Source of the DNA: Clostridia bacterium
GTDB lineage: Bacteria; Bacillota; Sulfobacillia; JAJZYS01; JAJYTV01
NCBI GenBank assembly: GCA_027420455.1
Contig: DAIBJA010000072.1
Location: 24 to 64,023, forward strand
DNA length: 64,000 nucleotides
Direction of reading: 5' to 3'
The notes under the pieces were generated by a model, which was not told the origin of the DNA, ran no database searches, and saw only the letters and a program-made list of their open reading frames with translations. A program made the translations under genes and the position numbers. Shown here in pieces: positions 15,605-45,926 of the stretch. How positions within the stretch are numbered: position 1 is the first letter of the stretch; each line of letters opens with the position of its first letter.

Positions 15605-15700
15605 AATACCCCGCGAAATGGCAAACGGCCCGAAAGGGTCGGACGCAAAGCTACGGGTCTAAGGCCAAAGTGGGCTATGATCGCCGGGCTGCCGAAGGGA
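15605..15700 (+). ncRNA. Candidate c-di-GMP-I (GEMM) riboswitch aptamer in the 5' leader of the flp/tad operon.
   Basis: Sequence ...AUGGCAAACGGCCCGAAAGGGUCGGACGCAAAGCUACGGGUCUAAGGCC... matches the GEMM hallmarks: GGCAAAC, GAAA tetraloop hairpin (GGCCC-GAAA-GGGUC), GGACGCAAAGC and CUAA. Compare V. cholerae Vc2 GGCAAACC..GAAA..GGGACGCAAAGCC..CCUAA. Confidence 0.65.
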
Positions 15701-33608: not shown

Positions 33609-36600
33609 TTGTCGAACGACAGGCGCCTGAGCTGTCTGCAGCAGGAGCTGCAGGCGCTCTCGCCAGGCCTTTCCTACGATCAGGTGTTCGAGGCGATCGT
33701 CCGCATATCCCGCGACCTGATGAAGGCCGACAGCATGGCCATCCTCTGTCCCGACAAAGGCGGCCTCATGTACGAGGTTGGCGGCTCGGAAGATTTCGAC
33801 CTCGCTCGGTGGGAGCGGGAGAGGAACGATCAGCCATCGCCCGGAGAGGTGTCCTGGCTCCAGGTCTCCGACCTGGGTGCAGCTGCCACGCTGGTGCGTG
33901 CCGGGTTCGCTTCCGGGAGCGGCAGCGGCGTCGTCTGTGTCGGTTACGCGCGGCGCTATGAGCCCGAGGCGGACGACCTCGACTTCCTGCGCATGGCTGC
34001 GCATCAGATCGGCCTCGCCGCCGGCCGCAGGACGCAGCAGGACACCCTGCAACGCGAGACGGCGGCCGCGAGGCGGCAAGTGCGCCTGTGGCGCGCCTTG
34101 GCGCAGCTCGGACAGGCCGTGATGCGCACGGAGGATCGCATCGGACTGATGCGGCAGGTCTGCAACATTGCCGTCGAGTACGGAGATTTCGCCTTCGCCT
34201 GGGTCGGTGAGCGCGACGCGTCGGACGAGATCCGGCCGGTTGCCTGGTCCGGAGCGGAAGGGGAGACGCTGCGGGAACTCGGGGTGCGTCTCGACCCGAG
34301 CAATCCGCGCGGCACCGGCCCTGCGGCCAGGGCCTTGCGCGAGGGGAGGCTCGTTACCGCGGCGGATCTCTGGGCAGATCCGAAGCTTTTGGCATGGCAC
34401 GAGCTCGCCGCGCGTTTTGCCCTGCACTCCGTCGCTGCCGTGCCGATCGTCGCCGGCGGAGTCACCGCGGCCGTCCTCGTGATTTACGCAGAGGGAATCG
34501 GGGAGTTCGAGGACGGTTCCGTGCAGGCGGTGCTGGCGGAGATCGCCCAGGAACTCGGCTTTGGCCTCGACGTGATCGATGAACGGCGCCGCCGTATCGA
34601 GGCCGAGGAGCAGCTGCGGTTGCACCATGAGATTGTGGAACAGGCCAAGGAGTGCCTGGTGGTCGCCAAGGTGCTGCCGGACGGCAAGGTCAGGTTCGTG
34701 TACGCGAACCCCGCCTTCGAGAACATGACAGGCTATCGGATCGACGAGATGATAGGCAAGGCGTCCGAGATGCTCTGGGGGCCGCGCACCGACCGCAAGG
34801 CGATCGCTGCCATGCATGACGTCGTACTGGCGGGAAAGGCTTGGTCGGGCGAGGTCTGGCAATACCGCAAGGATGGCAGCGCATTCCTGATGGAATGGTC
34901 AGCCGTGCCGTTGCGCGACGAAGAGGGCCGCATCGCCTACATCCTGTCGTCGCACCGGGACGTCACGGAGCGGCGCCGCGCAAGCGAGCGCGTCGCACAC
35001 ATGGCGCACCACGACGCGCTCACGGGCTTGCCCAACCGGCGTCTGCTCGAGGAGCGCCTGGCGCACGCGCTGCACAGAGCCAGGCGGCATCGCCACCGCT
35101 TCGCCCTGGCTTTCATCGACCTTGACGAGTTCAAGCAGGTGAACGACAGCCTTGGCCACGGCTTCGGGGACAAGCTGCTGCAGCAGTTGGCGCACCGCCT
35201 GCAGGACATGGTGCGCGGCGAAGATACGATCGCCCGCTCGGGAGGGGACGAGTTCATCCTGCTCGTGGATACCGTGCGCGAGCGTGCGGAGATCGACCAC
35301 CTTCTCGACCGGATCGTCCATGCCCTGGAAGAGCCCTGCTTGATCGGCGGCCGTACCTTCGCTGTGCGCGGCAGCATCGGCCTCGCCGTCTTCCCGGAGG
35401 ACGGCGAGGACATGAAGACGCTCATGCGGCGTGCCGACATTGCGATGTACGCCGCGAAGAAGAGCGACGGCGCGCGGTACCGCTACTTCGCGCCCGAGAT
35501 GGAGGATGCGGTGGCCCTGCGCGGCAACCTGAGAGCAAGGCTCCAGGCGGCGCTCGCGCGCGGTGAGCTCGAGCTCCACTACCAGCCGCAGGTGGATCTG
35601 GTCCACCAGGAGGTCGTCGGGTTCGAGGCCCTACTGCGCTGGCGGGATCCAGTGGAGGGCCTGCGCCTGCCCGGCGAATTCCTCCCGGCGGTGGAGGGGA
35701 CGCCGCTCGAGCAGGAAATCGGCCGCTTCGTCCTGCACGCGGCCCTGAATCAGGCGGAGGCGTTCAGCCGGCAGGGCCTCGCGCTGCAGGTGGCGTTCAA
35801 CGCGTCGCCAAGCCAGTTCCTGTCGCCCGCCTTCACGCGGGAACTCGAGGAGGCGCTCGCCCTCCACCCGACCGTCTCGCCGCAGCAGCTGGCGATCGAG
35901 ATCACCGAGTCCGCTGTGGTGCACGATGTCGAGCTGGCGCGCCGCCAGATCGAGGTCTGCCACCGGCTGGGCGTGGCGGTCGCCCTGGACGACTTCGGTA
36001 CGGGGTCGTCATCGATCACCTTGCTGCAGGAATTGCCCTGCGACATCATCAAGATCGACCAGCGCTTCATCGCGGGGATGCTCGAAACGCCCGAGAGCCC
36101 GGCCATCATCCATGGCATCCTGATCATGGGGAGCGCCATGGACCGACGGGTGCTGGCGGAGGGCGTCGAGACGGCGACCCAGGCGCGGGCCCTCCTGCGG
36201 CTCGGCTGCCACCTCGTGCAGGGCTACGCGGTCGCGCGGCCCATGCCGGCCGCGGCGATCGGCAGCTCGTGCACGGACTTCACGCAGCGTGCACCGCTCG
36301 TCGTCGGCGGCGAGATCCAGGACGCCGCGGAGACGTTCCAGCTGCTTGCGGTCGAGCTCGGGCACCTGCGCTGGGCCGCGCTCTTCACGGCGACGGCGAC
36401 GGGGACGGAAGCTGGGACGGGAGCTGACGGTCGCTACAAGAAAGTCCGCGGCACATGCTGCGGGCTCGGCTACTGGCTCGAGACATACGGCCGCAGCCAG
36501 TTCGCACTCCACCCCGCATTGGCCGATGTCGAGCGCGAACACCTTGTATCGCACGATCTCGCCGCGGCGACGCTGCGCCTGCGCGCCGAGGGCGACCTCA

Positions 36601-36680
36601 AGGCGGCTGCCGTGGCGGCGGAGCGACTCTGGCGGCAGAAGGACGATCTCATCATGGCCCTCGCCCGTCTCAAACCCTGA
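33609..36680 (+). CDS. Multidomain c-di-GMP signalling protein: GAF and PAS sensor domains, GGDEF, EAL, and an uncharacterised C-terminal extension of about 140 aa.
   Basis: GGDEF site (SGGDEFILL) and EAL motifs (EALLRW, DDFGTG); a GAF-like N-terminal region and a PAS-like region are domain inference only. 1023 aa. Confidence 0.85.
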   Translation: MSNDRRLSCLQQELQALSPGLSYDQVFEAIVRISRDLMKADSMAILCPDKGGLMYEVGGSEDFDLARWERERNDQPSPGEVSWLQVSDLGAAATLVRAGFASGSGSGVVCVGYARRYEPEADDLDFLRMAAHQIGLAAGRRTQQDTLQRETAAARRQVRLWRALAQLGQAVMRTEDRIGLMRQVCNIAVEYGDFAFAWVGERDASDEIRPVAWSGAEGETLRELGVRLDPSNPRGTGPAARALREGRLVTAADLWADPKLLAWHELAARFALHSVAAVPIVAGGVTAAVLVIYAEGIGEFEDGSVQAVLAEIAQELGFGLDVIDERRRRIEAEEQLRLHHEIVEQAKECLVVAKVLPDGKVRFVYANPAFENMTGYRIDEMIGKASEMLWGPRTDRKAIAAMHDVVLAGKAWSGEVWQYRKDGSAFLMEWSAVPLRDEEGRIAYILSSHRDVTERRRASERVAHMAHHDALTGLPNRRLLEERLAHALHRARRHRHRFALAFIDLDEFKQVNDSLGHGFGDKLLQQLAHRLQDMVRGEDTIARSGGDEFILLVDTVRERAEIDHLLDRIVHALEEPCLIGGRTFAVRGSIGLAVFPEDGEDMKTLMRRADIAMYAAKKSDGARYRYFAPEMEDAVALRGNLRARLQAALARGELELHYQPQVDLVHQEVVGFEALLRWRDPVEGLRLPGEFLPAVEGTPLEQEIGRFVLHAALNQAEAFSRQGLALQVAFNASPSQFLSPAFTRELEEALALHPTVSPQQLAIEITESAVVHDVELARRQIEVCHRLGVAVALDDFGTGSSSITLLQELPCDIIKIDQRFIAGMLETPESPAIIHGILIMGSAMDRRVLAEGVETATQARALLRLGCHLVQGYAVARPMPAAAIGSSCTDFTQRAPLVVGGEIQDAAETFQLLAVELGHLRWAALFTATATGTEAGTGADGRYKKVRGTCCGLGYWLETYGRSQFALHPALADVEREHLVSHDLAAATLRLRAEGDLKAAAVAAERLWRQKDDLIMALARLKP

Positions 36681-36735
36681 GGGGTGCCGCCCGGGCATCG
36701 TCCGGGCGCTGACTTATGGAACGTGAGGCGACCGT

Positions 36736-38691
36736 ATGGACGTCAGTGTCAACCATCTCTGGGTCATCGTCAGCGCCTGCTTCGTCTTCTTCATGCAGGC
36801 CGGCTTCGTCTTCTACGAAGTGGGATTCGTGCAGGCCAAGAACGTGGTCAGCGTCGCCATCGAGAACATGCTCACGTTCATTATCGCGACGCTCGTGTTC
36901 GGGTTTCTCGGCTTCGCGTTCATGTTCGGCCCGACGCACCTCGGCATCGTCGGCGGCGGCTTCTTCTTTTTGAACCACCTGACGGCGGGCAGAAACTCGT
37001 TCGGCTACGTCTTCGCCTTCTTCGAACTCATGTTTGCCGCCACTTCGGTCACCATCGTCTCTGGCAGCATGTCGGAGCGGACGCGGCTCGTGCCGCTCCT
37101 GATCGCGGCCGTGTTCATGGCCGGCTTCATCTACCCGCTCTTTGGCCACTGGGCCTGGGGCGGCATGTTCCTGCATCAGCCGGCATGGCTCAAGAACCTC
37201 GGCTACATGGATTTCGCCGGCGCCACGGTGGTGCACGCCACGGCGGGCTGGGTCTCGCTTGCGGGCCTCATGATCGTCGGGCCGCGCAGGGATCGCTGGG
37301 ACGCCGAAGGCAGGGTGAAGCAGCTCGGCCGTTCAAACGTGCCGTTCGCGACGCTCGGAACGTTCATCCTGTGGTTCAGCTGGTTCGGCTTCAACGGCGG
37401 CAGCCTGCTGCAGTTCGACAGCCGCGTCGGACTCATCTTGCTCAACACGAACTTCGCGGCGGCGGGCGGCGTGGTGGGGGCGCTCCTGACCACGGCCCTC
37501 TTCATGCGGGACCACAGCTATATGGAGGCCATCTTCTCCGGCGCGCTCGGCGGCCTTGTCGCGATCACAGCGAGCTCGGACTATGTGCAACCGCCTCAGG
37601 CGGTGCTGGTGGGCCTGATCACCGGTTCCGTCGTGGTGCTGGCGAGCCTCTGGCTCGAGCGCAGGCGCCTCGACGACGCTGTCGGTGCGGTCCCGATCCA
37701 TGGCTTCGGCGGCGCCGTCGGAACGCTGCTCCTGGCGTTCTTCGCCGCGCCGCAGTTCCTGGGCGGGCAGACGAGACTCGTGAAGTTCCTCGTGCAGCTC
37801 CTGGGCGTATCGGTGAACTTCGTCTGGTCCTTCGGGCTCGGCTTCCTGATGTTCTACCTGATCAAGCGCTGGATCGGCCTGCGCGTGACCGAGGCGGAAG
37901 AGGAGAAGGGCCTCAACATCGTGGAGTTCGGCGATATCTACTCCTGGCAGGAGTACCTGCGCACCTCGCACTATGAACATCTCACGAGCGATCTCTCCGG
38001 GCGCATTCAGGTGCAGAACCAGCTTCTGCAGCGGCAGGCGCGCCTGCTCGTGGAGACGGAGGAGCACGAGCGCGTGCGCCTCGCGCGAGACCTGCATGAT
38101 GGCGTCGGCCAGTCGCTGGCGGCGCTCAAGCTGCGGCTCGGGATCATTGCGGGGAGGGTGCGCAGCAGCCGCGGCGGTCCCGAGATCGAGGCGCAAGTGG
38201 ACGAGACGGTGCAGCTGACTGCCCAGACGATCGAGGAGATCCGCGGCGTCCTCTTGAACCTCAGGCCCGACATCCTGCGCACCAGAGGTCTTGCGGCCGC
38301 CACAGAGGCCCTGCTCGAGGGCATGGAGAAGGCGAGCGGTATGCGATGCACCTTTGAGGCGCACGCGCAGATGCCGGACTGGGAGGAGGCGGCAGCCCTC
38401 AACATCTACCGCGTCCTGCAGGAGTCTCTCGCGAACGTGCTGAGGCATGCCCAGGCGACCAGGGTCGAGGTCACCTTCGCGCGCCTGCGCCCGGGGCTGT
38501 ACGCCTTTCAGGTCCGCGACGACGGCCACGGTTTCGCGCCGGACAACGTCCACCGCGGACTTGGGCTCAACTCCATGCAGGAGAGACTTCAGATGCTGGG
38601 CGGAGTCCTGCGCATCGACTCCGCAGTCGGGCGTGGCACGACCCTGACGATGGAGGTGCCTTATGAAGACCAGGGTCGTGATCGCGGATGA
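36736..38691 (+). CDS. Sensor histidine kinase with a complete N-terminal ammonium-transporter (Amt/MEP) domain as sensor (Amt-HK). The kinase is of the HisKA_3/NarX type.
   Basis: Amt signature DFAGATVVHATAG and about 11 TM helices over residues 1-400. H-box LARDLHDGVGQSLAALKL and a HATPase_c C-terminus. Confidence 0.85.
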   Translation: MDVSVNHLWVIVSACFVFFMQAGFVFYEVGFVQAKNVVSVAIENMLTFIIATLVFGFLGFAFMFGPTHLGIVGGGFFFLNHLTAGRNSFGYVFAFFELMFAATSVTIVSGSMSERTRLVPLLIAAVFMAGFIYPLFGHWAWGGMFLHQPAWLKNLGYMDFAGATVVHATAGWVSLAGLMIVGPRRDRWDAEGRVKQLGRSNVPFATLGTFILWFSWFGFNGGSLLQFDSRVGLILLNTNFAAAGGVVGALLTTALFMRDHSYMEAIFSGALGGLVAITASSDYVQPPQAVLVGLITGSVVVLASLWLERRRLDDAVGAVPIHGFGGAVGTLLLAFFAAPQFLGGQTRLVKFLVQLLGVSVNFVWSFGLGFLMFYLIKRWIGLRVTEAEEEKGLNIVEFGDIYSWQEYLRTSHYEHLTSDLSGRIQVQNQLLQRQARLLVETEEHERVRLARDLHDGVGQSLAALKLRLGIIAGRVRSSRGGPEIEAQVDETVQLTAQTIEEIRGVLLNLRPDILRTRGLAAATEALLEGMEKASGMRCTFEAHAQMPDWEEAAALNIYRVLQESLANVLRHAQATRVEVTFARLRPGLYAFQVRDDGHGFAPDNVHRGLGLNSMQERLQMLGGVLRIDSAVGRGTTLTMEVPYEDQGRDRG

Positions 38692-39304
38692 CCACAAGAT
38701 CCTGCGCCAGTCGCTTTTCATCCTGTTGCAGCAGGAAGACGACATTGAAGTCGTAGGCGAGGCGGGGAGCGGGCAGGAGGCGCTGGATGAAGTCCAGCGC
38801 CTGAAGCCGGACATTGCCATCCTCGACATTTCCCTGCCGCAGCTGAGCGGCCTCGACGTCGCGGCCCACCTCAGGCAGGCGATGCCCGACGTGCGCGTCA
38901 TCATCCTGACCATGCACAAGAGCGAGGAGTTCGTGGCGCGGGCCTTCCGCGAAAAGGTGCAGGGCTACGTCCTGAAGGACAATGCCCTCGAGGAGCTCCT
39001 GAAGGCCATCAGGGTCGTGCGCGGAGGTGGCACCTATGTCTCGCCCGACATCGCCGGCGCCATCGTCGCAGGCTTCGTGGAGAACTACAGCCAGGGTCGT
39101 GAACGGGATGTCATCTCGCCCCGCGAGCGGGAGATCGTGGAACTTCTCGCTGGCGGGCAGAGCAACCGGCAGATCGCGCAGCTTCTGAACCTCAGCCTCA
39201 AGACCGTGGAGACGCATCGCGCCAACATCATGCACAAGCTCGGCCTGCGGAGCATCCGGGATCTCGTGCTCTATGCCGTGCGCAACCATATCATCGAGCC
39301 GTAA
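38663..39304 (+). CDS. LuxR/NarL-family response regulator.
   Basis: Receiver domain (VVIADDH..ILDISLP) plus LuxR HTH (REREIVELLAGGQSNRQIAQLLNLSLKTVETH). Overlaps the kinase stop. Confidence 0.9.
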   Translation: MKTRVVIADDHKILRQSLFILLQQEDDIEVVGEAGSGQEALDEVQRLKPDIAILDISLPQLSGLDVAAHLRQAMPDVRVIILTMHKSEEFVARAFREKVQGYVLKDNALEELLKAIRVVRGGGTYVSPDIAGAIVAGFVENYSQGRERDVISPREREIVELLAGGQSNRQIAQLLNLSLKTVETHRANIMHKLGLRSIRDLVLYAVRNHIIEP

Positions 39305-39436
39305 GGCGCGAAGAGGACCAAGATACCGCGGATCCCCTCGCGCGAATACAGTGTTGTCCGTATATGGCCTTGGAACCTCCTGTCCTAGGGTGAAGTGGGC
39401 GATCTGCGCCTACCCTCCGGGAGAGGATGATGAAGC

Positions 39437-40654
39437 GTGATCAACACGGGCGATACCGCATTCGTACTGATCAGCGCAGCCCTGGTCCTGCTGATGACTC
39501 CTGGTCTCGCATTCTTTTACGGCGGCCTTGTCAGAAAGCAGAATGTGCTGACGATCATGATGCAGATCTTCATCGCCATGGGGGTCGTGGCCACCATCTG
39601 GGTGCTGGGCGGATTCAGCCTGGCCTTCGGCCCGGACTGGCATGGCGTGATCGGCACCCTCAAGTACTTCGGCCTGCAGGGAGTCGGAATGGCGCCGAAC
39701 CCGGCCCACGGTGCGACGATCCCATTCCTCGTCTTCTTCGCCTTCCAGCTGATGTTCGCCATCATCACACCGGCCTTGGTCACCGGTGCCTTCGCCGACC
39801 GCGTCAAGTTCTCCGGCTATCTCTGGTTCCTGGTGCTCTGGAGCGTGCTCGTCTACATCCCGGTCGCCCATTGGCTTTGGGGCGGCGGCTTCCTGGCGCA
39901 GATGGGGGCCGTCGACTTCGCCGGCGGCATGGTCGTCCACGCGACCGCTGGCTTCGGCGCCATCGCATCGGTGTTCGTGGTGGGCAACCGCTACCTGCCG
40001 AAGGGCACGTCGAACACGCCGCACAACCTTCCTTTCGTGGCGCTCGGTACCGGACTCCTCTGGTTCGGCTGGTTCGGCTTCAACGCCGGCAGCGCCCTGG
40101 CGGCGAACGGGGTCGCCGCGGTGGCCTTTGTCAACACCGATGTCGCGGCATCGGTCGCCATGGTGGCGTGGCTGGCGGTGCAGTGGCTCGTTGACCGCAA
40201 GCCTACCGTCTCCGGCGCACTCATCGGGGCCGTGGCCGGGCTTGCCACCATCACGCCGGCGGCGGGCTTTGTCCAGCCCTGGGCGGCGGCCGTCATCGGA
40301 CTCTTCGCGGGACTCGTGCCGTTCGGCGCGATGCGCCTGCGCATGACGTGGAGGAACGTGGACGACGCTTTGGACGTCTGGGGTTGCCATGGCGTCGGCG
40401 GTGTCCTCGGCTCGCTGCTCCTGGGCGTCTTCGCCGTCGCGTCGATCAACGGCGTGAGCGGTCTCGTCCAGGGCGACGTGCACCAGCTGCTGATGCAGTT
40501 CGTCGCGGTCGTCGTGACGAGCGGGTACGCCTTCGCGATGACTTGGGGCATCCTTAAGGTGCTCGACGTCGCCGGCAGCTTGCGGGTTTCGCGCGAAATC
40601 GAGGTGGAGGGCCTGGACGAGGCCCTGCATGGGGAAGCCGCCTACGCGGACTAA
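39437..40654 (+). CDS. amt: Ammonium transporter.
   Basis: DFAGGMVVHATAGF signature, 11 TM helices, GTG start after GGGAGAGG. Confidence 0.9.
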   Translation: MINTGDTAFVLISAALVLLMTPGLAFFYGGLVRKQNVLTIMMQIFIAMGVVATIWVLGGFSLAFGPDWHGVIGTLKYFGLQGVGMAPNPAHGATIPFLVFFAFQLMFAIITPALVTGAFADRVKFSGYLWFLVLWSVLVYIPVAHWLWGGGFLAQMGAVDFAGGMVVHATAGFGAIASVFVVGNRYLPKGTSNTPHNLPFVALGTGLLWFGWFGFNAGSALAANGVAAVAFVNTDVAASVAMVAWLAVQWLVDRKPTVSGALIGAVAGLATITPAAGFVQPWAAAVIGLFAGLVPFGAMRLRMTWRNVDDALDVWGCHGVGGVLGSLLLGVFAVASINGVSGLVQGDVHQLLMQFVAVVVTSGYAFAMTWGILKVLDVAGSLRVSREIEVEGLDEALHGEAAYAD

Positions 40655-40772
40655 TCCTGACGTCGCGAGGGGCAGCGCCGCACATCCGCGGTGCTGCCCC
40701 GCTCGATTTTGCTGCAACTGCGTGCAGGATATGCCACCGAACCGACAGGGCTCGCCATGTTATGCTAACAGG

Positions 40773-41780
40773 GTGCAAAAGCTAGAGCGGCCCGCTCCGT
40801 CGCGTCAAAGACCAGTCTCTTTTCGTGCGCTGCTCGCGTTGGCCTGGCTCGCGTGCGCTGCGCTCCTGGTCGGACCTGCGCCGGCGCGGGCTCAGGCCGC
40901 GGCCGGCCTCGACTGGTTCGGTCCCACGCTGCTGCCGAAGTATCGCATCGTGTCGTATTACGGCAACCCCCTGTCCGCGACGATGGGCGTGCTGGGACAG
41001 GGAACGACGCAGGAGATGCTCGCCCGCCTTGCCGCGCAGGAGCAGGCCTACCAGACGGCGGATCCTGGCCACAAGGTGATCGGGGCGCTCGAGCTCGTCG
41101 CCGTGGTGGCCCAGCGCAGTCCTGGCCCCCAGGGCTACTACAGCTCCCGGATGCCATACTCCGTGATCCAGGGCGAACTTGACCTGGCGCGCAGCCATCA
41201 CCTCCTCCTGATTCTCGATGTCCAGATCGGGCATGCGACGGTACAGAGCGAGTTGCAGTATCTTGCACCGTTCCTCCGCCAACCGGATGTGGAACTGGCG
41301 CTCGATCCCGAGTTCGCCATGCTGCCGGGAGACATCCCCGGCGTCCAGTTCGGATCGATGCCGACGCCGCCCATCAACTGGGCTCTTCAGTACCTGCAGT
41401 CGATCACCGTGCGCTACCACCTGCCGCAGAAGATCCTGATCCTGCACCAGTTCATCGAGAGCATGGTGCCGGACTGGCAGCAGATCCAGGAGCAGCCCGA
41501 CGTCGTCCTGGTCCGCGACCTCGACGGCTTTGGCGGCTGGCAGCTCAAGTCGTCGGAGTACGAGCGGTTCATCCAGCAGGAGGCCATCCCGTACGTCGTG
41601 CCCTTCAAGAGCCCCCTCGGCGTGCGCGGCGCCTTGAACGGCTTCTACGTCGCGCGCATCGAGAGCCACTTCGTCGTCGCAGGCGGCATGAAGCTCTTCT
41701 ACACCCAGGACCATCCGCTCGCGACGCCCGCCATGGTGCTCGCCCTCGATCCGCCGCCGCTCGTCGTCATCTACCAGTAG
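40773..41780 (+). CDS. Secreted hypothetical protein. Signal peptide has an AxA-like cleavage site (ARA|QAAAG).
   Basis: GTG start gives MQKLERPAPSRQRPVSFRALLALAWLACAALLVGPAPARA. No confident family assignment. Confidence 0.55.
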   Translation: MQKLERPAPSRQRPVSFRALLALAWLACAALLVGPAPARAQAAAGLDWFGPTLLPKYRIVSYYGNPLSATMGVLGQGTTQEMLARLAAQEQAYQTADPGHKVIGALELVAVVAQRSPGPQGYYSSRMPYSVIQGELDLARSHHLLLILDVQIGHATVQSELQYLAPFLRQPDVELALDPEFAMLPGDIPGVQFGSMPTPPINWALQYLQSITVRYHLPQKILILHQFIESMVPDWQQIQEQPDVVLVRDLDGFGGWQLKSSEYERFIQQEAIPYVVPFKSPLGVRGALNGFYVARIESHFVVAGGMKLFYTQDHPLATPAMVLALDPPPLVVIYQ

Positions 41781-41825: not shown

Positions 41826-42857
41826 TCAGCGGTAGGACTGGCGGGCCGCGAGGTAGCGGGGGTCTTCGCGCCGCAGACGGTCGGGATCGGTGCCGCGCGC
41901 AAGGGCAGCGTGGTAGGTCAGCAGCTGGAGAAAGACACCGGCAAGCCAGGGGTAGGTGTCGGCCGACGCCGACGGCGCCCAGGACGCGAGGGTCGGCAGG
42001 TCGATCGCAAGCAGGGAGAGATCGACGATCCCGGCCAGCTTCTTGAGGTCGTCCGCCCTATGGGCGGCCGCTGGACCGAGTATGGCGACCACGTGGTCAC
42101 CCGGCTCGTAGGCGGGGACGTAGCCGTGAAAGAACTGTTCGAGCTCGAGCGCCTGATTCTCGAGGTACGCGGCCTCGCTCAACTTGAGTCCGACCTCCCG
42201 GGCGAGGGGCAGCCCCTCGGCGGCGCCCAAGATCACGCGCCGGCCACCGAGCAGACCCTTTGCTGCCTGCGCGATCTCGCTCTCGTGTCTCAAGACCCCT
42301 GCGATGCCGTCCGCCACATCGATCGGCGAGGGCAGCGTCAACTGCGGCGGCAGCTGGGCGGCGGCCGCCTTCAGGAGCAGGACGGTCATGAGCGATGAGA
42401 GCGTGAAGCTGATCGTGTGGCACCATGAGAGTTCGCGGGCATAGCCGGTCGGAACCGTGACGCTCGCGAGGCTGGCCGCCGTGGAGGAAGGGAAGCCCGT
42501 GATCAGCACCGTGGGCACCTCGCGCTCTCGCGCGGCAGCGAGCAGGTCCAGCACGGCGGCGGTCTCGCCGGAATGGCTGAAGGCCACGATCGGACGCCGG
42601 CGGTCGAGCGGGACCTGCCGCTGCAGCAGGGGGAAGGCGCCGGACGCGACGACCTGGCCGCCTCGTTCGTATAAATAGCTGGCGGCGAGTTCCGCCGCGA
42701 ACAGCGCCGTGCCACAGCCGGCCAGGATCGGCACCTTGCCCGCCAGGATGCCGGCGGCGGCGTCGGCGCTGCGAGCCACCGCCTCGCCTAGCGCCAGCAC
42801 ATGAGCGGGCTGCGCCAGGATCTCCTCGTACATGTGGTAGGGGCCTTGGCCGCTCAA
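41826..42857 (-). CDS. SIS-domain sugar-phosphate isomerase/aminotransferase-like protein (double SIS, AgaS/GlmS C-terminal-like).
   Basis: Two SIS-domain motif regions. TTG start with GGAGGTG RBS. Sits at the 3' end of the pentose-phosphate operon. Confidence 0.75.
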   Translation of the reverse strand: MSGQGPYHMYEEILAQPAHVLALGEAVARSADAAAGILAGKVPILAGCGTALFAAELAASYLYERGGQVVASGAFPLLQRQVPLDRRRPIVAFSHSGETAAVLDLLAAAREREVPTVLITGFPSSTAASLASVTVPTGYARELSWCHTISFTLSSLMTVLLLKAAAAQLPPQLTLPSPIDVADGIAGVLRHESEIAQAAKGLLGGRRVILGAAEGLPLAREVGLKLSEAAYLENQALELEQFFHGYVPAYEPGDHVVAILGPAAAHRADDLKKLAGIVDLSLLAIDLPTLASWAPSASADTYPWLAGVFLQLLTYHAALARGTDPDRLRREDPRYLAARQSYR

Positions 42858-43582
42858 GACACCACCTCCGTCGACTCATCGGACACTGCCTCACGGTCGC
42901 AGAAGACCACGGTCTCCAGTCGGCCGCGCAGGAAAGAGGTGGGAATGCGGGGGTCCGGCGCCTCCGCCGCCAGCGCGGCATGCAGCGCCCTGCGCTTGGC
43001 CGCGCCCGTGACCAGGAAGAAGATCCGCGCCGTGCCCGATAGCGCCGCAGGCGTCAGCGAGATGCGCTCCCGGGGCGGAGTCGGCACGTAGGTCGCGATG
43101 GCGAGGTCGGCTGCGGCGAGGCCGGGGCAGCCGGGAAAGAGCGAGAGCGTGTGTCCTTCGGGCCCCATGCCGACCAGGGCCAAGGTGAACGGAGGCTGCT
43201 GTCCGAGTCGCTCGAGCAACCGGTCGTGATACCGGCGTGCGCCCTCCTCGCCACCGAGTTCTCCCAGCATGCGATGCACCCGCCCGGCGGCGATGCCGAG
43301 AGGCTTCAGCAGCGTCTCCTGCGCGAGGCGGTAGTTGCTCTTAGGGTGATCCGGTCCGACGCAGCGCTCGTCGCCGAACCAGTATTCCGCATCGTGCCAG
43401 TGCGGAGCGGCCGATTCCTCACCCGCGGTCGCCAGGATCACATAGACGGCGCGCGGCGTCTGCCCTCCCGCCAGCACGACCTGCGGCTCTTTTGCCTCGC
43501 GCAGCGCCTCGGCCATGGCGGTGGCGCAGGCCTTCATGGTGTCCGCGACCGTCGGAAAGACGCGCAGTTCGAGGCCGCTCAT
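42854..43582 (-). CDS. pgl: 6-phosphogluconolactonase.
   Basis: DevB/Pgl family, with HWHDAEYWFGDER and LVGMGPEGHTLSLFPG motifs. Confidence 0.85.
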   Translation of the reverse strand: MSGLELRVFPTVADTMKACATAMAEALREAKEPQVVLAGGQTPRAVYVILATAGEESAAPHWHDAEYWFGDERCVGPDHPKSNYRLAQETLLKPLGIAAGRVHRMLGELGGEEGARRYHDRLLERLGQQPPFTLALVGMGPEGHTLSLFPGCPGLAAADLAIATYVPTPPRERISLTPAALSGTARIFFLVTGAAKRRALHAALAAEAPDPRIPTSFLRGRLETVVFCDREAVSDESTEVVS

Positions 43583-45033
43583 CGCAGGTGCCAGCGGCGT
43601 CCGTCATGGTGCAGGAGCTCGTCGGCCGCCTCCGGTCCGAGGCTGCCGGCGCGGTAGATGTCCGGCCCGATTTCCTCCTGGCGCCAGCCCGCCTCGATGG
43701 CGTCCACCACCTGCCACGCGGCCTCGACCTCGTCGCGCCTAGTGAAGAGGGTGCCGTCACCGGTGATCGCGTCGTAGAGGAGACGCTCGTAAGCCTCGGT
43801 TCCCGGTTTGCCGAAGGTGCCATAGTCGAAGGCCATGTCGACGTCGCGCAGCTCGATGCGCAGGCCGGGCACCTTGGCCCCGACCGACAGAGTCATGCCC
43901 TCGTCCGGCTGGATCCGCAGCCTGAGCACGTTGGGCTGCAGGCGCGTCTCGCGCGGGAAGAGGCGCTGCGGGGCGCGCTGGAACTGCACCGAGATTTCGC
44001 TGACGCGGCGCCCGAGGCGCTTGCCGGTGCGCAGGTAGAAGGGCACGTCGGCCCAGCGCCAGTTCTCGACCTGCAGTTTGACAGCCGCGAACGTCTCCTG
44101 CTGGGAGTCGCGGCGCACGTCGGGTTCCTCCCGGTAGCCAGGCACCGGCTTGCCGGCCATTTCGCCCGGTCCGTACTGACCCCGCACGGTCACGTTCGGC
44201 ACCTCGTGCGGTGCGGGCAGCCTGAGCGCGCGCAGCACCTTGACCTTTTCGTTGTGCACCTGCTCGGCGTCGAAGGTGACAGGCGGCTCCATGGCGATCA
44301 GGGTCAGGAGCTGCAGGAGGTGGTTCTGCATCATGTCCCGCAGCGCTCCGGCCTCCTCGTAGTACTTGCCGCGGTGCTCCACGCCGATCGACTCCATCAC
44401 CGAGATCTGGACGTGGTCGACGTAGCGCCTGTTCCAGAGCGGCTCGAAGATGCCGTTCGCGAAGCGCAGGACGAGGATGTTCTGCACGGTCTCCTTGCCG
44501 AGATAGTGGTCGATGCGGAAGACCTGGTCCTCCCGGAACACCGAGAGAAGTTCCTGGTTGAGCTCTCGCGCGCTGAGAAGATCATGGCCGAACGGTTTCT
44601 CGACGATGATGCGGCTGAAGCCGTGGGATTCGTCCTGCAGCCCGACGCTGCCGAGTGCCTGGAAGATGTCGGTATAGGTGCTGGGCGGCGCCGCCAGATA
44701 GAAGATGCGGCCAGCGAACGGTCCCTGGGCGGCCTCGATCTCATCGAGCCGGCTGCCAAGGGCCTTGTAGTCGTCCGCCTGGCGAAGGTCGCCTACGACG
44801 TAGACGGCCTGGGCTATCACGTCGTCGGCGTCGCTGCCTTCCACGGTCTCGTGCAGGCGCTGGCGGAAGCTCTCGTCGTCGAGAGGCTGCCGTGCGAAGC
44901 CGACGAGCGGCATCGGGCCTCCGATCAGGCCGGCGCGTCGCAGGCCCGCGATCGCCGGAACCAGCTTGCGATGGGTGAGGTCGCCTGTGGCGCCGAGGAC
45001 GCAGAGCAGGACTCCCCTGGCCTGCGCGCTCAT
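43579..45033 (-). CDS. zwf: Glucose-6-phosphate 1-dehydrogenase.
   Basis: GATGDL NADP site, and RIDHYLGKE and EKPFG motifs. Start at the internal ATG with GGTGGAGAG RBS; the 5' extension of the 675-aa ORF is low complexity. Confidence 0.9.
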   Translation of the reverse strand: MSAQARGVLLCVLGATGDLTHRKLVPAIAGLRRAGLIGGPMPLVGFARQPLDDESFRQRLHETVEGSDADDVIAQAVYVVGDLRQADDYKALGSRLDEIEAAQGPFAGRIFYLAAPPSTYTDIFQALGSVGLQDESHGFSRIIVEKPFGHDLLSARELNQELLSVFREDQVFRIDHYLGKETVQNILVLRFANGIFEPLWNRRYVDHVQISVMESIGVEHRGKYYEEAGALRDMMQNHLLQLLTLIAMEPPVTFDAEQVHNEKVKVLRALRLPAPHEVPNVTVRGQYGPGEMAGKPVPGYREEPDVRRDSQQETFAAVKLQVENWRWADVPFYLRTGKRLGRRVSEISVQFQRAPQRLFPRETRLQPNVLRLRIQPDEGMTLSVGAKVPGLRIELRDVDMAFDYGTFGKPGTEAYERLLYDAITGDGTLFTRRDEVEAAWQVVDAIEAGWRQEEIGPDIYRAGSLGPEAADELLHHDGRRWHLR

Positions 45034-45926
45034 CGGCTCTCCACCTTGTGTCCGCCGAATTCGTTGCGCAGGGCGGCGATCACCCGGTTGGCCAGGGTGT
45101 CCTCCTGGCGCGAGAGGAAGCGCTGCTGCAGGGAGAGCGTGATCACCGGCGCCGCGACGCCGCGCTCGATCGCCTCGACGGCCGTCCAGCGGCCTTCGCC
45201 GGAATCGTCGACATAACCGCGCAGGTGCTGAAGCTCCGGGTCCTTCTCGAGCGCCTGAGCCAGGAGGTCGAGAAGCCAGCTGCGCACGACCGAACCGTGT
45301 CGCCACAGCTCGGCCACCTCCTCGAGCTGCAGGTCGAACGGTCCGCGCTTCAGGAGCTCGAAGCCTTCGCCGTAGGCTTCGAGCATGCCGTACTCGATCC
45401 CGTTGTGCACCATCTTGACGTAATGCCCTGAGCCTGGCGCCCCGGTGTGGAGCAGGCCGCCCTCCGGGGCCAGGGCCTTGAGCGCCGGTTCGAGACGGCT
45501 GAACGCTTCGACGCTGGCACCGACCATGAGGCAGTAGCCCTCCTGGAGGCCCCAGATGCCGCCGCTCGTGCCGGCGTCGACGAACTCCACCTCCGCGGCT
45601 TCGCACAGCTTCGCCATCTCGATGCTGTCCTTGTAGTGGCTGTTGCCGCCATCCACCAGGATGTCGCTGGGCCCGACGCGCTCCAAGAGATGCGCGATGG
45701 TCTTCTGGGTGGGGGCGCCGGCCGGAACCATCAGCCAGACGACGCGGGGTGGCCGCAGCATCTCGCAGAGATCATCGAGCGACGACGCCGTGCCGATGCC
45801 GTCGGACTCCACGGCTTTGCGGGCTTCCTCGCTCGGGTCGAACCCGATCACCCGGTGACCGCCGCGCGCGAGGCGCCGCGCCATGTTGGCGCCCATGCGT
45901 CCGAGTCCCACCATGCCGATCTCCAT
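45030..45926 (-). CDS. gnd: 6-phosphogluconate dehydrogenase, short (YqeC/GndA-like, decarboxylating) form.
   Basis: GLGRMGANMARRL Rossmann fold, 298 aa. Confidence 0.85.
   Translation of the reverse strand: MEIGMVGLGRMGANMARRLARGGHRVIGFDPSEEARKAVESDGIGTASSLDDLCEMLRPPRVVWLMVPAGAPTQKTIAHLLERVGPSDILVDGGNSHYKDSIEMAKLCEAAEVEFVDAGTSGGIWGLQEGYCLMVGASVEAFSRLEPALKALAPEGGLLHTGAPGSGHYVKMVHNGIEYGMLEAYGEGFELLKRGPFDLQLEEVAELWRHGSVVRSWLLDLLAQALEKDPELQHLRGYVDDSGEGRWTAVEAIERGVAAPVITLSLQQRFLSRQEDTLANRVIAALRNEFGGHKVESR

What the first reader, a model, noticed from the sequence alone, without database searches (positions are those of the whole stretch)
36736..40654. Ammonium-transporter-domain sensor histidine kinase (Amt-HK), LuxR response regulator and canonical amt in a row
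The 651-aa protein has a complete Amt/MEP permease domain (11 TM, DFAGATVVHATAG signature) fused to a HisKA_3/HATPase_c kinase. It is translationally coupled to a NarL/LuxR-type response regulator, and a stand-alone amt gene follows 130 bp downstream, with no glnK/PII. This architecture suggests direct sensing of ammonium by a transporter-like sensor that controls amt. Such Amt-fused kinases are rare and to my knowledge have been characterised mainly in anammox bacteria.
Basis: partly seen in the sequence, partly recalled or inferred. Interest (0 to 1): 0.6.

Follow-up and report, generated by a model that had tools for sequence, protein, structure and literature searches.

The report
Ammonium-sensing kinase cassette controlling an ammonium transporter
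A bacterial ammonium-transporter look-alike fused to a signalling kinase sits next to its partner regulator and a real ammonium transporter, whose promoter carries a conserved candidate binding site for that regulator; this gives the first complete, testable circuit for this class of ammonium receptor.

Summary
36736..38691 encodes a 651-aa protein with a full 11-helix Amt domain, HisKA_3 and HATPase_c. It overlaps a NarL/LuxR response regulator (38663..39304) by 29 nt. A stand-alone amt (39437..40654) follows after 132 nt. No PII gene occurs in the 64 kb.

The sensor's Amt domain is closest to the solved ammonium receptor Ks-Amt5 (E 8e-119, TM-score 0.94). It keeps that protein's pore-blocking residues and most ammonium-site ligands.

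It differs from the characterised receptors in two ways:
- The kinase is HisKA_3 type, not HisKA.
- The K/R-D-Y(N) "switch" triad is replaced by Glu43, Thr/Ala47 and Leu121, in all or nearly all of 121 relatives. All 68 other close Amt relatives examined keep the standard Lys and Asp (Tyr in 65).

The fusion is not rare. More than 120 protein clusters carry it, in Bacillota, a Fusobacteria MAG and Cryosericum.

Kinase then regulator is conserved in 22 of 22 cassettes, and amt follows in 19 of 22.

The amt promoter carries two direct repeats (AAATACAGGATTTYCC, 22-23 bp apart) about 40 nt upstream of a -10 box. This module recurs in every cassette and follows amt across an IS insertion.

Most likely reading: a Uhp-like circuit in which a non-transporting Amt paralogue senses external ammonium and the regulator activates amt. 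Whether ammonium turns amt on or off is unknown.

This is a new variant of a known kind. Interest 0.55.

The parts
36736..38691 (+). Amt-domain sensor histidine kinase (651 aa): Amt receptor domain, long signalling helix, HisKA_3 DHp, HATPase_c
   Evidence: ORF. Pfam and NCBIfam domains. Best solved relative is Ks-Amt5 6eu6, E 8.1e-119. AF2 model mean pLDDT 81. Foldseek TM-score 0.94 to 6eu6.
36757..37935 (+). Amt/AmR receptor domain (aa 8-400, 11 TM helices). Filter W141/S223, Phe gate F100/F219, twin His H167/H322. Ks-Amt5-type pore blockers F24/Y27/F31. Ammonium-site ligands Q21, E28, N44, T106, S109. Clade-specific E43, T47, L121. Extended 20-residue loop 5 (aa 182-201).
   Evidence: Residue mapping against Ks-Amt5, Sd-Amt1, Af-Amt1 and EcAmtB. 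Family frequencies in 121 homologues. Contrast with 68 other Amts.
37930..38166 (+). One continuous predicted helix (aa 399-477) linking TM11 to the phospho-accepting His454 (codon 38095-38097). The linker is 54 or 47 residues across the family, a one-heptad step.
   Evidence: DSSP on the AF2 model (pLDDT only 50-60 here). Linker length counts 105 and 16.
38068..38274 (+). HisKA_3 dimerisation/phosphoacceptor domain (H-box LHDGVGQS)
   Evidence: Pfam PF07730, E 1e-15. H454, D455 and Q459 invariant in 121 of 121.
38401..38667 (+). HATPase_c catalytic domain (N567, D595xGxG, G608xG610 conserved)
   Evidence: Pfam PF02518. Invariance in the family.
38663..39304 (+). NarL/LuxR-family response regulator (REC aa 5-117 with D55; GerE HTH aa 150-205). 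Its start overlaps the kinase stop by 29 nt, with Shine-Dalgarno GGAGGTG at 38652-38658.
   Evidence: A gene directly follows the kinase in 22 of 22 cassettes.
39321..39337 (+). Box 1 of the candidate regulator operator (AGATACCGCGGATCCCC)
   Evidence: Alignment of 16 regulator-amt intergenic regions. Leave-one-lineage-out PWM scan. Coordinates.
39344..39360 (+). Box 2 of the candidate regulator operator (GAATACAGTGTTGTCCG), 23 nt after box 1, abutting the -35 region
   Evidence: Independent loci L006, L011, L092-L094.
39386..39391 (+). Candidate -10 hexamer TAGGGT of the amt promoter, about 40 nt after the start of box 2. A TAnnnT hexamer lies within about 10 nt of that position in all 16 aligned loci.
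   Evidence: Read from the anchored alignment. Not found by the consensus promoter scan.
39419..39426 (+). Shine-Dalgarno GGGAGAGG of amt, 10 nt before the GTG start
   Evidence: Sequence.
39437..40654 (+). Stand-alone assimilatory-type ammonium transporter (405 aa). Has Tyr28 where the receptors have the ammonium-ligand Glu, and no N1/N2 ligands.
   Evidence: Pfam and TIGR00836, 419 bits. Best solved relatives Af-Amt1 (1e-98) and EcAmtB (4e-90). Residue table.
40669..40710 (+). Terminator-like hairpin (13-bp stem, 11 G-C pairs) plus T-rich tail, 15 nt after the amt stop. Marks the end of the cassette.
   Evidence: No terminator-like site between the regulator gene and amt.
33609..36680 (+). 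Neighbouring GAF-PAS-GGDEF-EAL protein, 55 nt upstream of the sensor. Context only: a neighbour in this lineage, not part of the conserved cassette.
   Evidence: Pfam. Present upstream in close relatives L081-L085 and L090. Absent in D. orientis, L089, L091 and L092-L094.

Best explanation
A three-gene ammonium-sensing circuit.

1. The 651-aa protein is an Amt-derived ammonium receptor. Its Amt domain selects NH4+ at the normal outer filter. It does not conduct the ion, because the pore carries the same bulky residues as Ks-Amt5. Instead the ion is held at an internal polar site built around Glu28, Asn44, Thr106 and Ser109.
2. Occupancy of that site is passed through a long helix (aa 399-477) to a HisKA_3 kinase, which sets the phosphorylation of His454.
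3. The phosphoryl group goes to Asp55 of the co-translated NarL-type regulator.
4. The phosphorylated regulator binds two direct-repeat boxes (39321-39337 and 39344-39360) lying just upstream of, and abutting, the -35 region of the amt promoter. It activates transcription of the real transporter, amt.

The logic matches UhpC/UhpB/UhpA-uhpT, where a non-transporting paralogue of a transporter reports external substrate and switches on the transporter gene. In this cassette that control takes the place of the usual amtB-glnK pairing.

Shown here: the domains, the conserved residues, the gene linkage and the conserved promoter module.
Inferred: ammonium as the ligand, absence of transport, the regulator binding the boxes, and activation rather than repression. 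Whether ammonium raises or lowers kinase output is not known.
For: Identity of the sensor:
- Full Amt fold plus HisKA_3 plus HATPase_c.
- Closest solved relatives are the two proven ammonium receptors, Ks-Amt5 (E 8e-119) and Sd-Amt1 (1e-90), well ahead of the transporters Af-Amt1 (2e-49) and AmtB (1e-37).
- It keeps the Ks-Amt5 pore blockers F24/Y27/F31, ligands Q21/E28/N44/T106/S109 and the 20-residue loop 5. In Ks-Amt5 these accompany ammonium binding without translocation and ammonium-dependent autophosphorylation (PMC5764959).
- The kinase catalytic residues are invariant in 121 homologues.

Identity of the transporter:
- The downstream amt is of the assimilatory type, with Tyr28 and none of the site ligands.

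Linkage:
- Kinase and regulator genes are adjacent in 22 of 22 cassettes; start/stop overlap was seen in the loci with called genes.
- amt comes next in 19 of 22 cassettes, across Bacillota, a Fusobacteria MAG and Cryosericum.
- None of these loci carries glnK. About 45 of the 59 stand-alone close Amt relatives have glnK beside them.

Operator:
- A two-box module plus a -10 hexamer at similar spacing (within about 10 nt) is present in all 16 aligned regulator-amt gaps.
- With the PWM built without the tested lineage, the module is the best hit of the whole locus in 12 of 16 loci. In the window it scores 14.3 against a next-best 8.8.
- Only 7 of 300 simulated 64-kb sequences reach 14.3 anywhere.
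- In five loci not used for training, the module ranks first (four loci) or second (one locus). It lies next to amt in L092-L094. It stays with amt after an IS insertion in L006. In L011, which has no cassette amt, it lies next to the two-component genes in front of a different membrane-protein operon.
- There is no TnrA/GlnR-type site in the promoter.
- The boxes lie upstream of and abut the -35 region, which is typical of activators.
Against: - There is no experimental data for any member of this HisKA_3 family.
- The N2 aspartate and the Lys/Arg switch, described as central to receptor activation in Sd-Amt1 (PMC11152129), are absent. The sensing mechanism, or even the ligand, could therefore differ.
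- All conduction-pathway residues (twin His, Phe gate, Trp/Ser filter) are intact, so residual transport cannot be excluded.
- The -10 element is read by eye; the consensus promoter scan found no promoter.
- NarL-type regulators more often bind inverted repeats than direct repeats.
- In four AT-rich loci the module is not the top PWM hit.
- The boxes have not been shown to bind this regulator.
- The AF2 confidence for the linker and DHp is low (pLDDT 50-60).
- An Amt trimer driving a normally dimeric DHp domain is unexplained, as it also is for Ks-Amt5.
Confidence: 0.65

Rival explanations
1. Same circuit, opposite sign. Ammonium binding switches the HisKA_3 kinase to its phosphatase state, or the phosphorylated regulator represses. 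amt would then be expressed when external ammonium is scarce and shut off when it is plentiful, as with classical nitrogen-limitation control of amtB.
For: HisKA_3 kinases such as DesK and NarX are bifunctional kinase/phosphatases (established knowledge). High-affinity Amt proteins are normally needed at low ammonium. Ks-Amt5 phosphorylation falls again at high ammonium (PMC5764959). The cassette lacks GlnK, which would otherwise block Amt under nitrogen excess.
Against: Ks-Amt5 phosphorylation rises steeply with low ammonium. The box positions, upstream of and abutting -35 rather than over the -10 or +1, fit activation by the phosphorylated regulator. Neither point fixes the sign of the ligand effect in this different kinase family.
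Confidence: 0.3
2. The fusion protein is a transceptor. It still conducts ammonium and reports flux rather than occupancy of a dead-end site, as proposed for yeast Mep2, so that it contributes to uptake alongside the downstream amt.
For: The Trp/Ser filter, Phe gate and twin His are all intact and invariant or nearly so. The N2 aspartate of the dead-end site is missing. The published survey notes that some N1/N2-bearing Amts, such as plant AMT1, do transport (PMC11152129).
Against: The three bulky residues that close the Ks-Amt5 pore (F27/Y30/F34) are conserved as F24/Y27/F31 in 118-121 of 121 relatives. Glu28 replaces the channel-wall Tyr of true transporters. A separate transporter gene of the assimilatory type is kept beside it in 19 of 22 cassettes.
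Confidence: 0.2
3. The Amt-like domain senses something other than external NH4+. Candidates are methylammonium or another small amine, K+, or an internal signal. The reason would be that its binding pocket has been rebuilt (E43, T/A47, L121).
For: The triad that executes the ammonium switch in Sd-Amt1 is replaced (E43 in 121 of 121, no Asp at position 47, L121 in 119 of 121). All 68 other relatives examined keep the standard Lys and Asp (Tyr in 65).
Against: The outer selectivity filter that discriminates NH4+ is intact. The regulated gene is an ammonium transporter in 19 of 22 cassettes. The N1 ligands E28, N44, T106 and S109 are kept.
Confidence: 0.1
4. The adjacency is only genomic. The regulator controls distant genes, and amt is governed by a general nitrogen regulator.
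For: No direct binding or expression data exist. In 3 of 22 cassettes amt is not the next gene.
Against: The order is conserved across Bacillota, a Fusobacteria MAG and Cryosericum. The two-box module stays with amt after an IS insertion (L006). It stays with the two-component genes when amt is replaced (L011). There is no TnrA/GlnR-type site and no second strong module elsewhere in the 64-kb window.
Confidence: 0.05

Closest known systems
Ks-Amt5 (kust_3690) of 'Candidatus Kuenenia stuttgartiensis', the ammonium sensor histidine kinase (PDB 6EU6; PMC5764959)
   Same: Amt domain fused at its C terminus to a histidine kinase, with no PAS or HAMP domain between them. Closest solved relative (E 8e-119; TM-score 0.94; about 46% identity). 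Same pore-blocking F/Y/F residues, same extended loop 5, and the ligands Gln, Glu, Asn, Thr and Thr/Ser. No glnK nearby. The distance from the Amt domain to the phospho-His is almost identical (H454 here, H460 there).
   Different: The Ks-Amt5 kinase is HisKA type (H-box SHELRT; closest to HK853; 14% identity to DesK), whereas this one is HisKA_3. Ks-Amt5 has R46, D50 and N124 where this family has E43, T/A47 and L121. The Ks-Amt5 regulator and target are unidentified. Here both are encoded next door. The hosts are Bacillota, not an anammox planctomycete.
Sd-Amt1 of Shewanella denitrificans, an Amt-HAMP-GGDEF ammonium receptor (PDB 8QJ3/8QJ4; PMC11152129)
   Same: Amt-based receptor of the same subfamily (E 1e-90). 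Shares ligands E29/N45/T104/S107 (E28/N44/T106/S109 here) and Phe at the Ks-T51 position.
   Different: Its output is a diguanylate cyclase reached through HAMP, not a kinase. Its switch K44-D48-Y119 is present, whereas here those positions are E43, T47 and L121. In this window a separate GAF-PAS-GGDEF-EAL gene lies upstream, but only in this lineage.
UhpC/UhpB/UhpA-uhpT of Escherichia coli (established knowledge; NCBIfam hits to UhpB at 6e-36 and UhpA at 8e-36)
   Same: Same logic and the same signalling families. A non-transporting paralogue of a transporter senses the external substrate. A HisKA_3 kinase and a NarL/LuxR regulator then activate the gene of the real transporter from sites upstream of a weak -35.
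   Different: In Uhp the sensor paralogue (UhpC, MFS fold) is a separate protein that works with UhpB. Here the sensor is fused to the kinase and has the Amt fold. The substrate is ammonium, not glucose-6-phosphate.
Canonical amtB-glnK (nrgA-nrgB) pair
   Same: The downstream gene is an ordinary AmtB/Af-Amt1-like transporter.
   Different: No PII gene lies beside it or anywhere in the 64 kb. A dedicated two-component system occupies the neighbouring position instead.
Transporter-domain sensor kinases CbrA, CrbS and MxtR (SLC5-like domain fused to a kinase; established knowledge)
   Same: A full transporter fold serves as the input domain of a histidine kinase that controls uptake and catabolic genes.
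   Different: Unrelated transporter fold, different kinase and regulator families, and different ligands.

Membership tests
Amt/Mep/Rh superfamily (Pfam PF00909) | Complete 11-helix Amt fold with Trp/Ser filter, Phe gate and twin His | tested here: met
   Profile positions 1-396 of 399 covered, E 1.8e-100. 11 helices in the AF2 model. TM-score 0.94 to 6eu6. W141/S223, F100/F219 and H167/H322 present.
Amt-based ammonium receptors (AmR; Pfluger et al. 2018, 2024) | Amt domain fused to a cytoplasmic transducer module | tested here: met
   HisKA_3 plus HATPase_c at aa 445-644.
Amt-based ammonium receptors (AmR) | N1/N2 signature ligands (Sd-Amt1 numbering Q22, E29, N45, D48, T104, S107) | tested here: not met
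   Five of six are present (Q21, E28, N44, T106, S109). The N2 aspartate is T47, and is never Asp in 121 homologues (A 64, T 51, S 5, V 1). The signature as published is therefore incomplete.
Amt-based ammonium receptors (AmR) | Lys/Arg switch residue and its Tyr/Asn partner (Sd K44/Y119; Ks R46/N124) | tested here: not met
   E43 in 121 of 121 and L121 in 119 of 121. All 68 other Amts of the same subfamily examined keep Lys and Asp; 65 have Tyr, and L012/L014 (His) and L056 (Cys) do not.
Amt-based ammonium receptors (AmR) | Obstructed pore (Ks-Amt5 F27/Y30/F34) and Glu in place of the channel-wall Tyr | tested here: met
   F24/Y27/F31 and E28. The downstream amt has L24/F27/L31 and Y28, like Af-Amt1.
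Amt-based ammonium receptors (AmR) | NH4+ binding without translocation, and NH4+-dependent transducer activity | not testable with these tools
   Needs electrophysiology and phosphorylation assays.
Ks-Amt5-type Amt-kinase | HisKA (PF00512) DHp domain with the H-E/D-x-x-T/N H-box | tested here: not met
   The window protein matches HisKA_3 (PF07730), with H-box LHDGVGQS, and has no PF00512 hit. Ks-Amt5 has SHELRT and is closest to HK853.
HisKA_3 / NarL-type two-component systems (NarX-NarL, UhpB-UhpA, DesK-DesR, LiaS-LiaR) | HisKA_3 H-box, N/G1/G2 boxes, and an adjacent REC plus GerE-type HTH regulator with a phospho-acceptor Asp | tested here: met
   DesK structures hit at 7e-14. H454, N567, D595xGxG and G608xG610 are invariant. 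The regulator has D9/D10, D55, T83 and K104 (read from the sequence).
Canonical amtB-glnK operon | PII gene (glnK) adjacent to amt | tested here: not met
   No GlnK homologue in the window, and none detected by the GlnK phmmer scan in L001-L011; no PII gene is annotated in L081-L094.
Uhp-like 'transporter paralogue senses, true transporter is induced' circuits | The regulator binds and activates the promoter of the transporter gene | tested here: inconclusive
   A conserved two-box module at activator-like positions was found in 16 training loci and 5 independent loci. Binding and activation have not been shown.

The most novel reading that the evidence does not exclude
The HisKA_3 Amt-kinases are a distinct, widespread second type of ammonium receptor with a re-engineered sensing switch. 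In the known receptors, the ammonium-ligand Glu is held by the ammonium group of a Lys or Arg side chain until NH4+ arrives. In this clade that Lys is an invariant Glu, and the N2 Asp and its Tyr partner are gone. A free NH4+ ion may therefore bridge Glu28 and Glu43 itself, taking the place of the lysine's ammonium group. On top of that, this family supplies the first full path for any Amt-based receptor, from receptor through regulator and operator to target gene. It does so in cultivable hosts.
Probability: 0.35. Interest if true: 0.7.

Novelty: new variant of a known kind. Interest (0 to 1): 0.55.

Why it matters
Amt-based ammonium receptors are known from two proteins studied structurally and in vitro. 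For neither is the downstream pathway known. The Ks-Amt5 paper states that its regulator is still to be identified.

This cassette offers a receptor with all of the following:
- its partner regulator encoded next door;
- a predicted operator;
- an obvious target gene;
- occurrence in cultured bacteria, namely Desulfosporosinus orientis DSM 765 and Clostridium aminobutyricum DSM 2634.

The question "what do ammonium receptors control, and in which direction?" therefore becomes directly testable.

The cassette also shows that the published N1/N2 "signature" does not cover all likely receptors. A whole clade has swapped the three switch residues together, which is a natural experiment on how ligand binding is converted into a signal.

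Finally, it suggests that many anaerobic Bacillota control ammonium uptake by direct sensing of the external substrate rather than through the PII-based route.

Tried and rejected
- Consensus sigma-70 promoter scan of 36300-41000 found nothing. The -10 was instead read from the cross-species alignment.
- Rfam found no RNA family in the cassette. The only hit in the window is a c-di-GMP-I riboswitch at 15610-15696.
- I looked for the two-box module upstream of the kinase gene, as a sign of autoregulation, in the window and 16 loci. None was found.
- A TnrA/GlnR-type palindrome search gave no site in the promoter, and overall counts were at chance level.
- A first idea of a NarL-like 7-2-7 inverted repeat (TACAGTG-TT-GTCCGTA, 39347-39362) was dropped. 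It held only in the closest relatives. The direct-repeat description fits all lineages.
- A representative-library search with the family-specific linker (aa 385-470) was uninformative. At 50% clustering the family collapses to about five representatives, and the remaining hits are generic HisKA_3 matches.
The host is known only as a high-GC (about 68%) relative of 'Bacillota bacterium DX1.bin73'.
- The AF2 model could not be used to measure the Glu28-Glu43 distance, because coordinates are not exposed.
- Literature searches for this architecture (Ammonium_transp with HisKA_3, ammonium receptor with LuxR or Clostridia) found no paper describing it. The library lacks most subscription journals.

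Full report
**Observation**

- The 651-aa product of 36736..38691 matches Pfam Ammonium_transp over residues 8-400. That covers profile positions 1-396 of 399, at E 1.8e-100. It also matches HisKA_3 (445-513) and HATPase_c (556-644).
- It passes the curated NCBIfam 'amt' threshold.
- An AlphaFold2 model built on 89 homologues has mean pLDDT 81 and is about 90 across most of the membrane domain. It shows eleven membrane helices. It superposes on the crystal structure of the Ks-Amt5 sensor domain with TM-score 0.94 and rmsd 1.8 A.
- The response regulator (38663..39304; Response_reg plus GerE) starts 29 nt before the kinase stop. A GGAGGTG Shine-Dalgarno sequence lies inside the kinase gene.
- The stand-alone amt (39437..40654) follows after 132 nt. 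It ends 15 nt before a strong terminator-like hairpin at 40669-40700.
- phmmer searches of all six-frame ORFs found no PII protein and no second regulator or HisKA_3 kinase in the 64 kb.

**What the sensor is**

By sequence, the closest solved proteins are the two experimentally established Amt-based ammonium receptors:

| Protein | Type | E-value |
|---|---|---|
| Ks-Amt5 (6EU6) | receptor | 8e-119 |
| Sd-Amt1 (8QJ3) | receptor | 1e-90 |
| Af-Amt1 | transporter | 2e-49 |
| EcAmtB | transporter | 1e-37 |

I mapped the functional residues named in the two structural papers (PMC5764959; PMC11152129) onto the window protein. The mapping used a MAFFT alignment that reproduces the published numbering of AmtB and Af-Amt1.

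- The outer filter (W141/S223), Phe gate (F100/F219) and twin His (H167/H322) are present.
- The three bulky residues that close the Ks-Amt5 pore are also present (F24/Y27/F31, for F27/Y30/F34).
- So are the 20-residue loop 5 and five ligands of the internal ammonium site (Q21, E28, N44, T106, S109).
- The downstream amt has Tyr28 where the receptors have Glu, and none of the ligands. It is closest to Af-Amt1 (1e-98) and AmtB (4e-90). It is an ordinary assimilatory transporter.

**Two differences from the known receptors**

First, the kinase family differs. The Ks-Amt5 supplement describes a HisKA kinase with H-box SHELRT, 33% identical to HK853 and only 14% to DesK. The window protein is HisKA_3, with H-box LHDGVGQS, and hits DesK structures.

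Second, the three residues that execute the switch in Sd-Amt1 are all replaced. Those residues are:
- Lys44, which holds Glu29 until ammonium arrives;
- Asp48, the N2 ligand;
- Tyr119, the partner of Asp48.

In Ks-Amt5 the equivalents are Arg46, Asp50 and Asn124. In the window protein they are Glu43, Thr47 and Leu121.

In 121 full-length homologues (52-100% identical), Glu43 is invariant. Position 47 is Ala, Thr, Ser or Val and never Asp. Leu121 occurs in 119 of 121.

By contrast, 68 other Amts of the same subfamily were recovered in the same genome scan. They comprise stand-alone genes, Amt-PAS-HisKA fusions and Amt-HAMP-MCP fusions. All of them have Lys and Asp at the first two positions. 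Tyr occupies the third in 65. The two Amt-PAS-HisKA fusions have His and one stand-alone gene (L056) has Cys.

The triple change is therefore a defining feature of the HisKA_3 clade. Two membrane-embedded carboxylates are still present (E28 and E43), but in a different geometry. One attractive but untested idea is that a free NH4+ ion takes the place of the lysine ammonium group between them.

The kinase catalytic residues are invariant. The model predicts one continuous helix from residue 399 to 477 that carries His454 (low confidence). Across the family the linker is 54 or 47 residues long. That one-heptad step fits a coiled-coil signalling helix.

**Distribution**

The fusion is not rare.

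- The protein search listed 120 clusters at 90% identity, all with the same three Pfam domains. They come from Desulfosporosinus, Clostridium, Lawsonibacter, Anaerotignum, Alicyclobacillaceae, Peptococcaceae and Cryosericum, among others.
- The closest genome is 'Bacillota bacterium DX1.bin73', at 90% identity.
- The window organism itself is unnamed. Its GC content is about 68%.

**Linkage**

I examined 22 distinct cassettes: the window, the genome-scan loci L001-L009 and L011, and the contigs of eleven further homologues.

- The NarL-type regulator is the next gene in 22 of 22; a small start/stop overlap was seen in the loci with called genes.
- amt comes next in 19 of 22.
- The cassette amt genes form their own orthologue group. 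They score 527-822 bits to the window amt in the loci scored (L001-L009), against at most 416 bits for other amt genes.
- No glnK was detected in the loci scanned with a GlnK query (L001-L011), and none is annotated in the others. About 45 of the 59 stand-alone relatives have glnK adjacent.

The three exceptions are informative:
- In L006 an IS256-type transposase has been inserted between the regulator gene and amt.
- In L088 a resolvase follows the regulator gene at a contig end.
- L011 has a different downstream arrangement, described below.

The upstream GAF-PAS-GGDEF-EAL gene is a neighbour only in the window's own lineage.

**Promoter**

I aligned 16 regulator-amt intergenic regions anchored on a recurring AATAC core. 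This revealed two direct repeats with consensus AAATACAGGATTTYCC, spaced 22-23 bp apart. A TAnnnT hexamer follows about 40 nt after the start of the second repeat.

In the window the elements are:

| Element | Coordinates |
|---|---|
| Box 1 | 39321-39337 |
| Box 2 | 39344-39360 |
| -10 hexamer TAGGGT | 39386-39391 |

I tested the module with a leave-one-lineage-out weight matrix.
- The two-box module is the best-scoring pair in the entire locus, on both strands, in 12 of 16 cases.
- That includes the whole 64-kb window, where it scores 14.3 against a next-best 8.8.
- Only 7 of 300 simulated 64-kb sequences reach 14.3 anywhere.
- In four AT-rich loci the module ranks second to fourth, or is detected only on the opposite strand (L009).

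Five loci not used for training confirm the module.
- It is the top hit in L092 (Cryosericum) and L093 (Anaerotignum) and the second hit in L094 (Clostridium). In each case it lies in the regulator-amt gap.
- In L006 it sits directly before the displaced amt.
- In L011, which lacks a cassette amt, the same boxes and a TATAAT at the same spacing lie beside the two-component genes. There they stand in front of a Dabb-domain gene and a 380-aa membrane protein with no Pfam match.

The module therefore travels both with amt and with the two-component system. That is what is expected if it is the regulator's operator.

The boxes lie upstream of and abut the -35 region, which is an activator-like position. 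There is no module upstream of the kinase gene and no TnrA/GlnR-type site in the promoter.

**Mechanism**

The best-supported reading is a Uhp-like circuit.

1. An Amt paralogue that binds but does not conduct ammonium is fused to a HisKA_3 kinase.
2. The kinase sets the phosphorylation of a NarL-type regulator.
3. The regulator activates the gene of the true transporter.
4. In this cassette the circuit replaces the usual amtB-glnK arrangement.

The domain identities, residue conservation, gene linkage and promoter module are shown here. Ammonium as the ligand, lack of transport, regulator binding and activation are inferred.

The sign of the response is open. Ks-Amt5 phosphorylation rises at low ammonium and falls at high ammonium, but that protein carries a different kinase family.

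**Comparison and novelty**

The class of Amt-based receptors, including an Amt-kinase, has been known since 2018. A 2024 survey placed about 30% of Amt sequences in the N1/N2-bearing cluster.

This locus is not a member of the Ks-Amt5 type, because the kinase family was tested and does not match. It also does not meet the full published N1/N2 signature.

I found no paper describing the HisKA_3 architecture, its cassette or its operator. I therefore rate it a new variant of a known kind.

Its value is practical. It gives a complete, testable receptor-to-gene pathway in cultivable bacteria, and a natural variant of the sensing switch.

Noticed in passing
window 15610-15696 (+), with ORFs from 15876 onward: A c-di-GMP-I riboswitch (83.6 bits, E 5.5e-15) lies upstream of TadE/TadG/CpaB-like Flp-pilus ORFs. 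The same window encodes a GAF-PAS-GGDEF-EAL protein next to the cassette.
   Followed up: partly
L015, L016, L020, L029, L030, L035, L043 (Leptospira spp., Halalkalibacter oceani, Neiella litorisoli, Thiohalospira): Amt domains fused to the MCP chemotaxis signalling domain (a below-threshold HAMP match in L020), with the canonical Lys/Asp/Tyr ammonium-site triad. These are candidate ammonium chemoreceptors.
   Followed up: partly
L012, L014 (Anaerolineaceae and Aggregatilineales MAGs): Amt-PAS-HisKA-HATPase_c fusions (Pfam run on L012; L014 read from its near-identical sequence). These carry a Ks-Amt5-like kinase type with an added PAS domain and have Lys/Asp/His at the switch positions. No regulator gene was detected in the short flanks available.
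   Followed up: partly
L011 4555-6200 (-): In a Senimuribacter MAG that lacks the cassette amt, the same two-box plus TATAAT promoter drives a Dabb-domain protein and a 380-aa polytopic membrane protein with no Pfam match. This may be an alternative target of the system.
   Followed up: partly
L006 8807-10033 (-): An IS256-family transposase (Transposase_mut, E 5e-111) is inserted between the regulator gene and amt. The operator module stayed with amt.
   Followed up: yes
L088 7822-8391: In Alicyclobacillaceae bacterium I2511 the kinase-regulator pair is followed by a MerR/resolvase gene at the contig end instead of amt.
   Followed up: no
window 40629-41780 (+): This ORF has no Pfam match and is conserved (300-356 aa) downstream of amt only in the close lineage. 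Its listed start overlaps the amt terminator, so the true start is probably further downstream. The N-terminal region looks like a signal peptide.
   Followed up: partly
window 41826-45606 (-) and beyond: A pentose-phosphate gene block (SIS, 6-phosphogluconolactonase, G6PD; relatives also have 6PGD and TAL-PGI) is syntenic with the cassette in the close relatives only.
   Followed up: no
window 15566 (-): This is the second-best two-box PWM hit in the window (8.8-10.0). Only the first box is convincing, so it is probably chance.
   Followed up: no
sensor aa 400-454 (window 37933-38097): The linker from the Amt domain to the phospho-His is 54 residues in 105 homologues and 47 in 16, exactly one heptad shorter.
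   Followed up: partly
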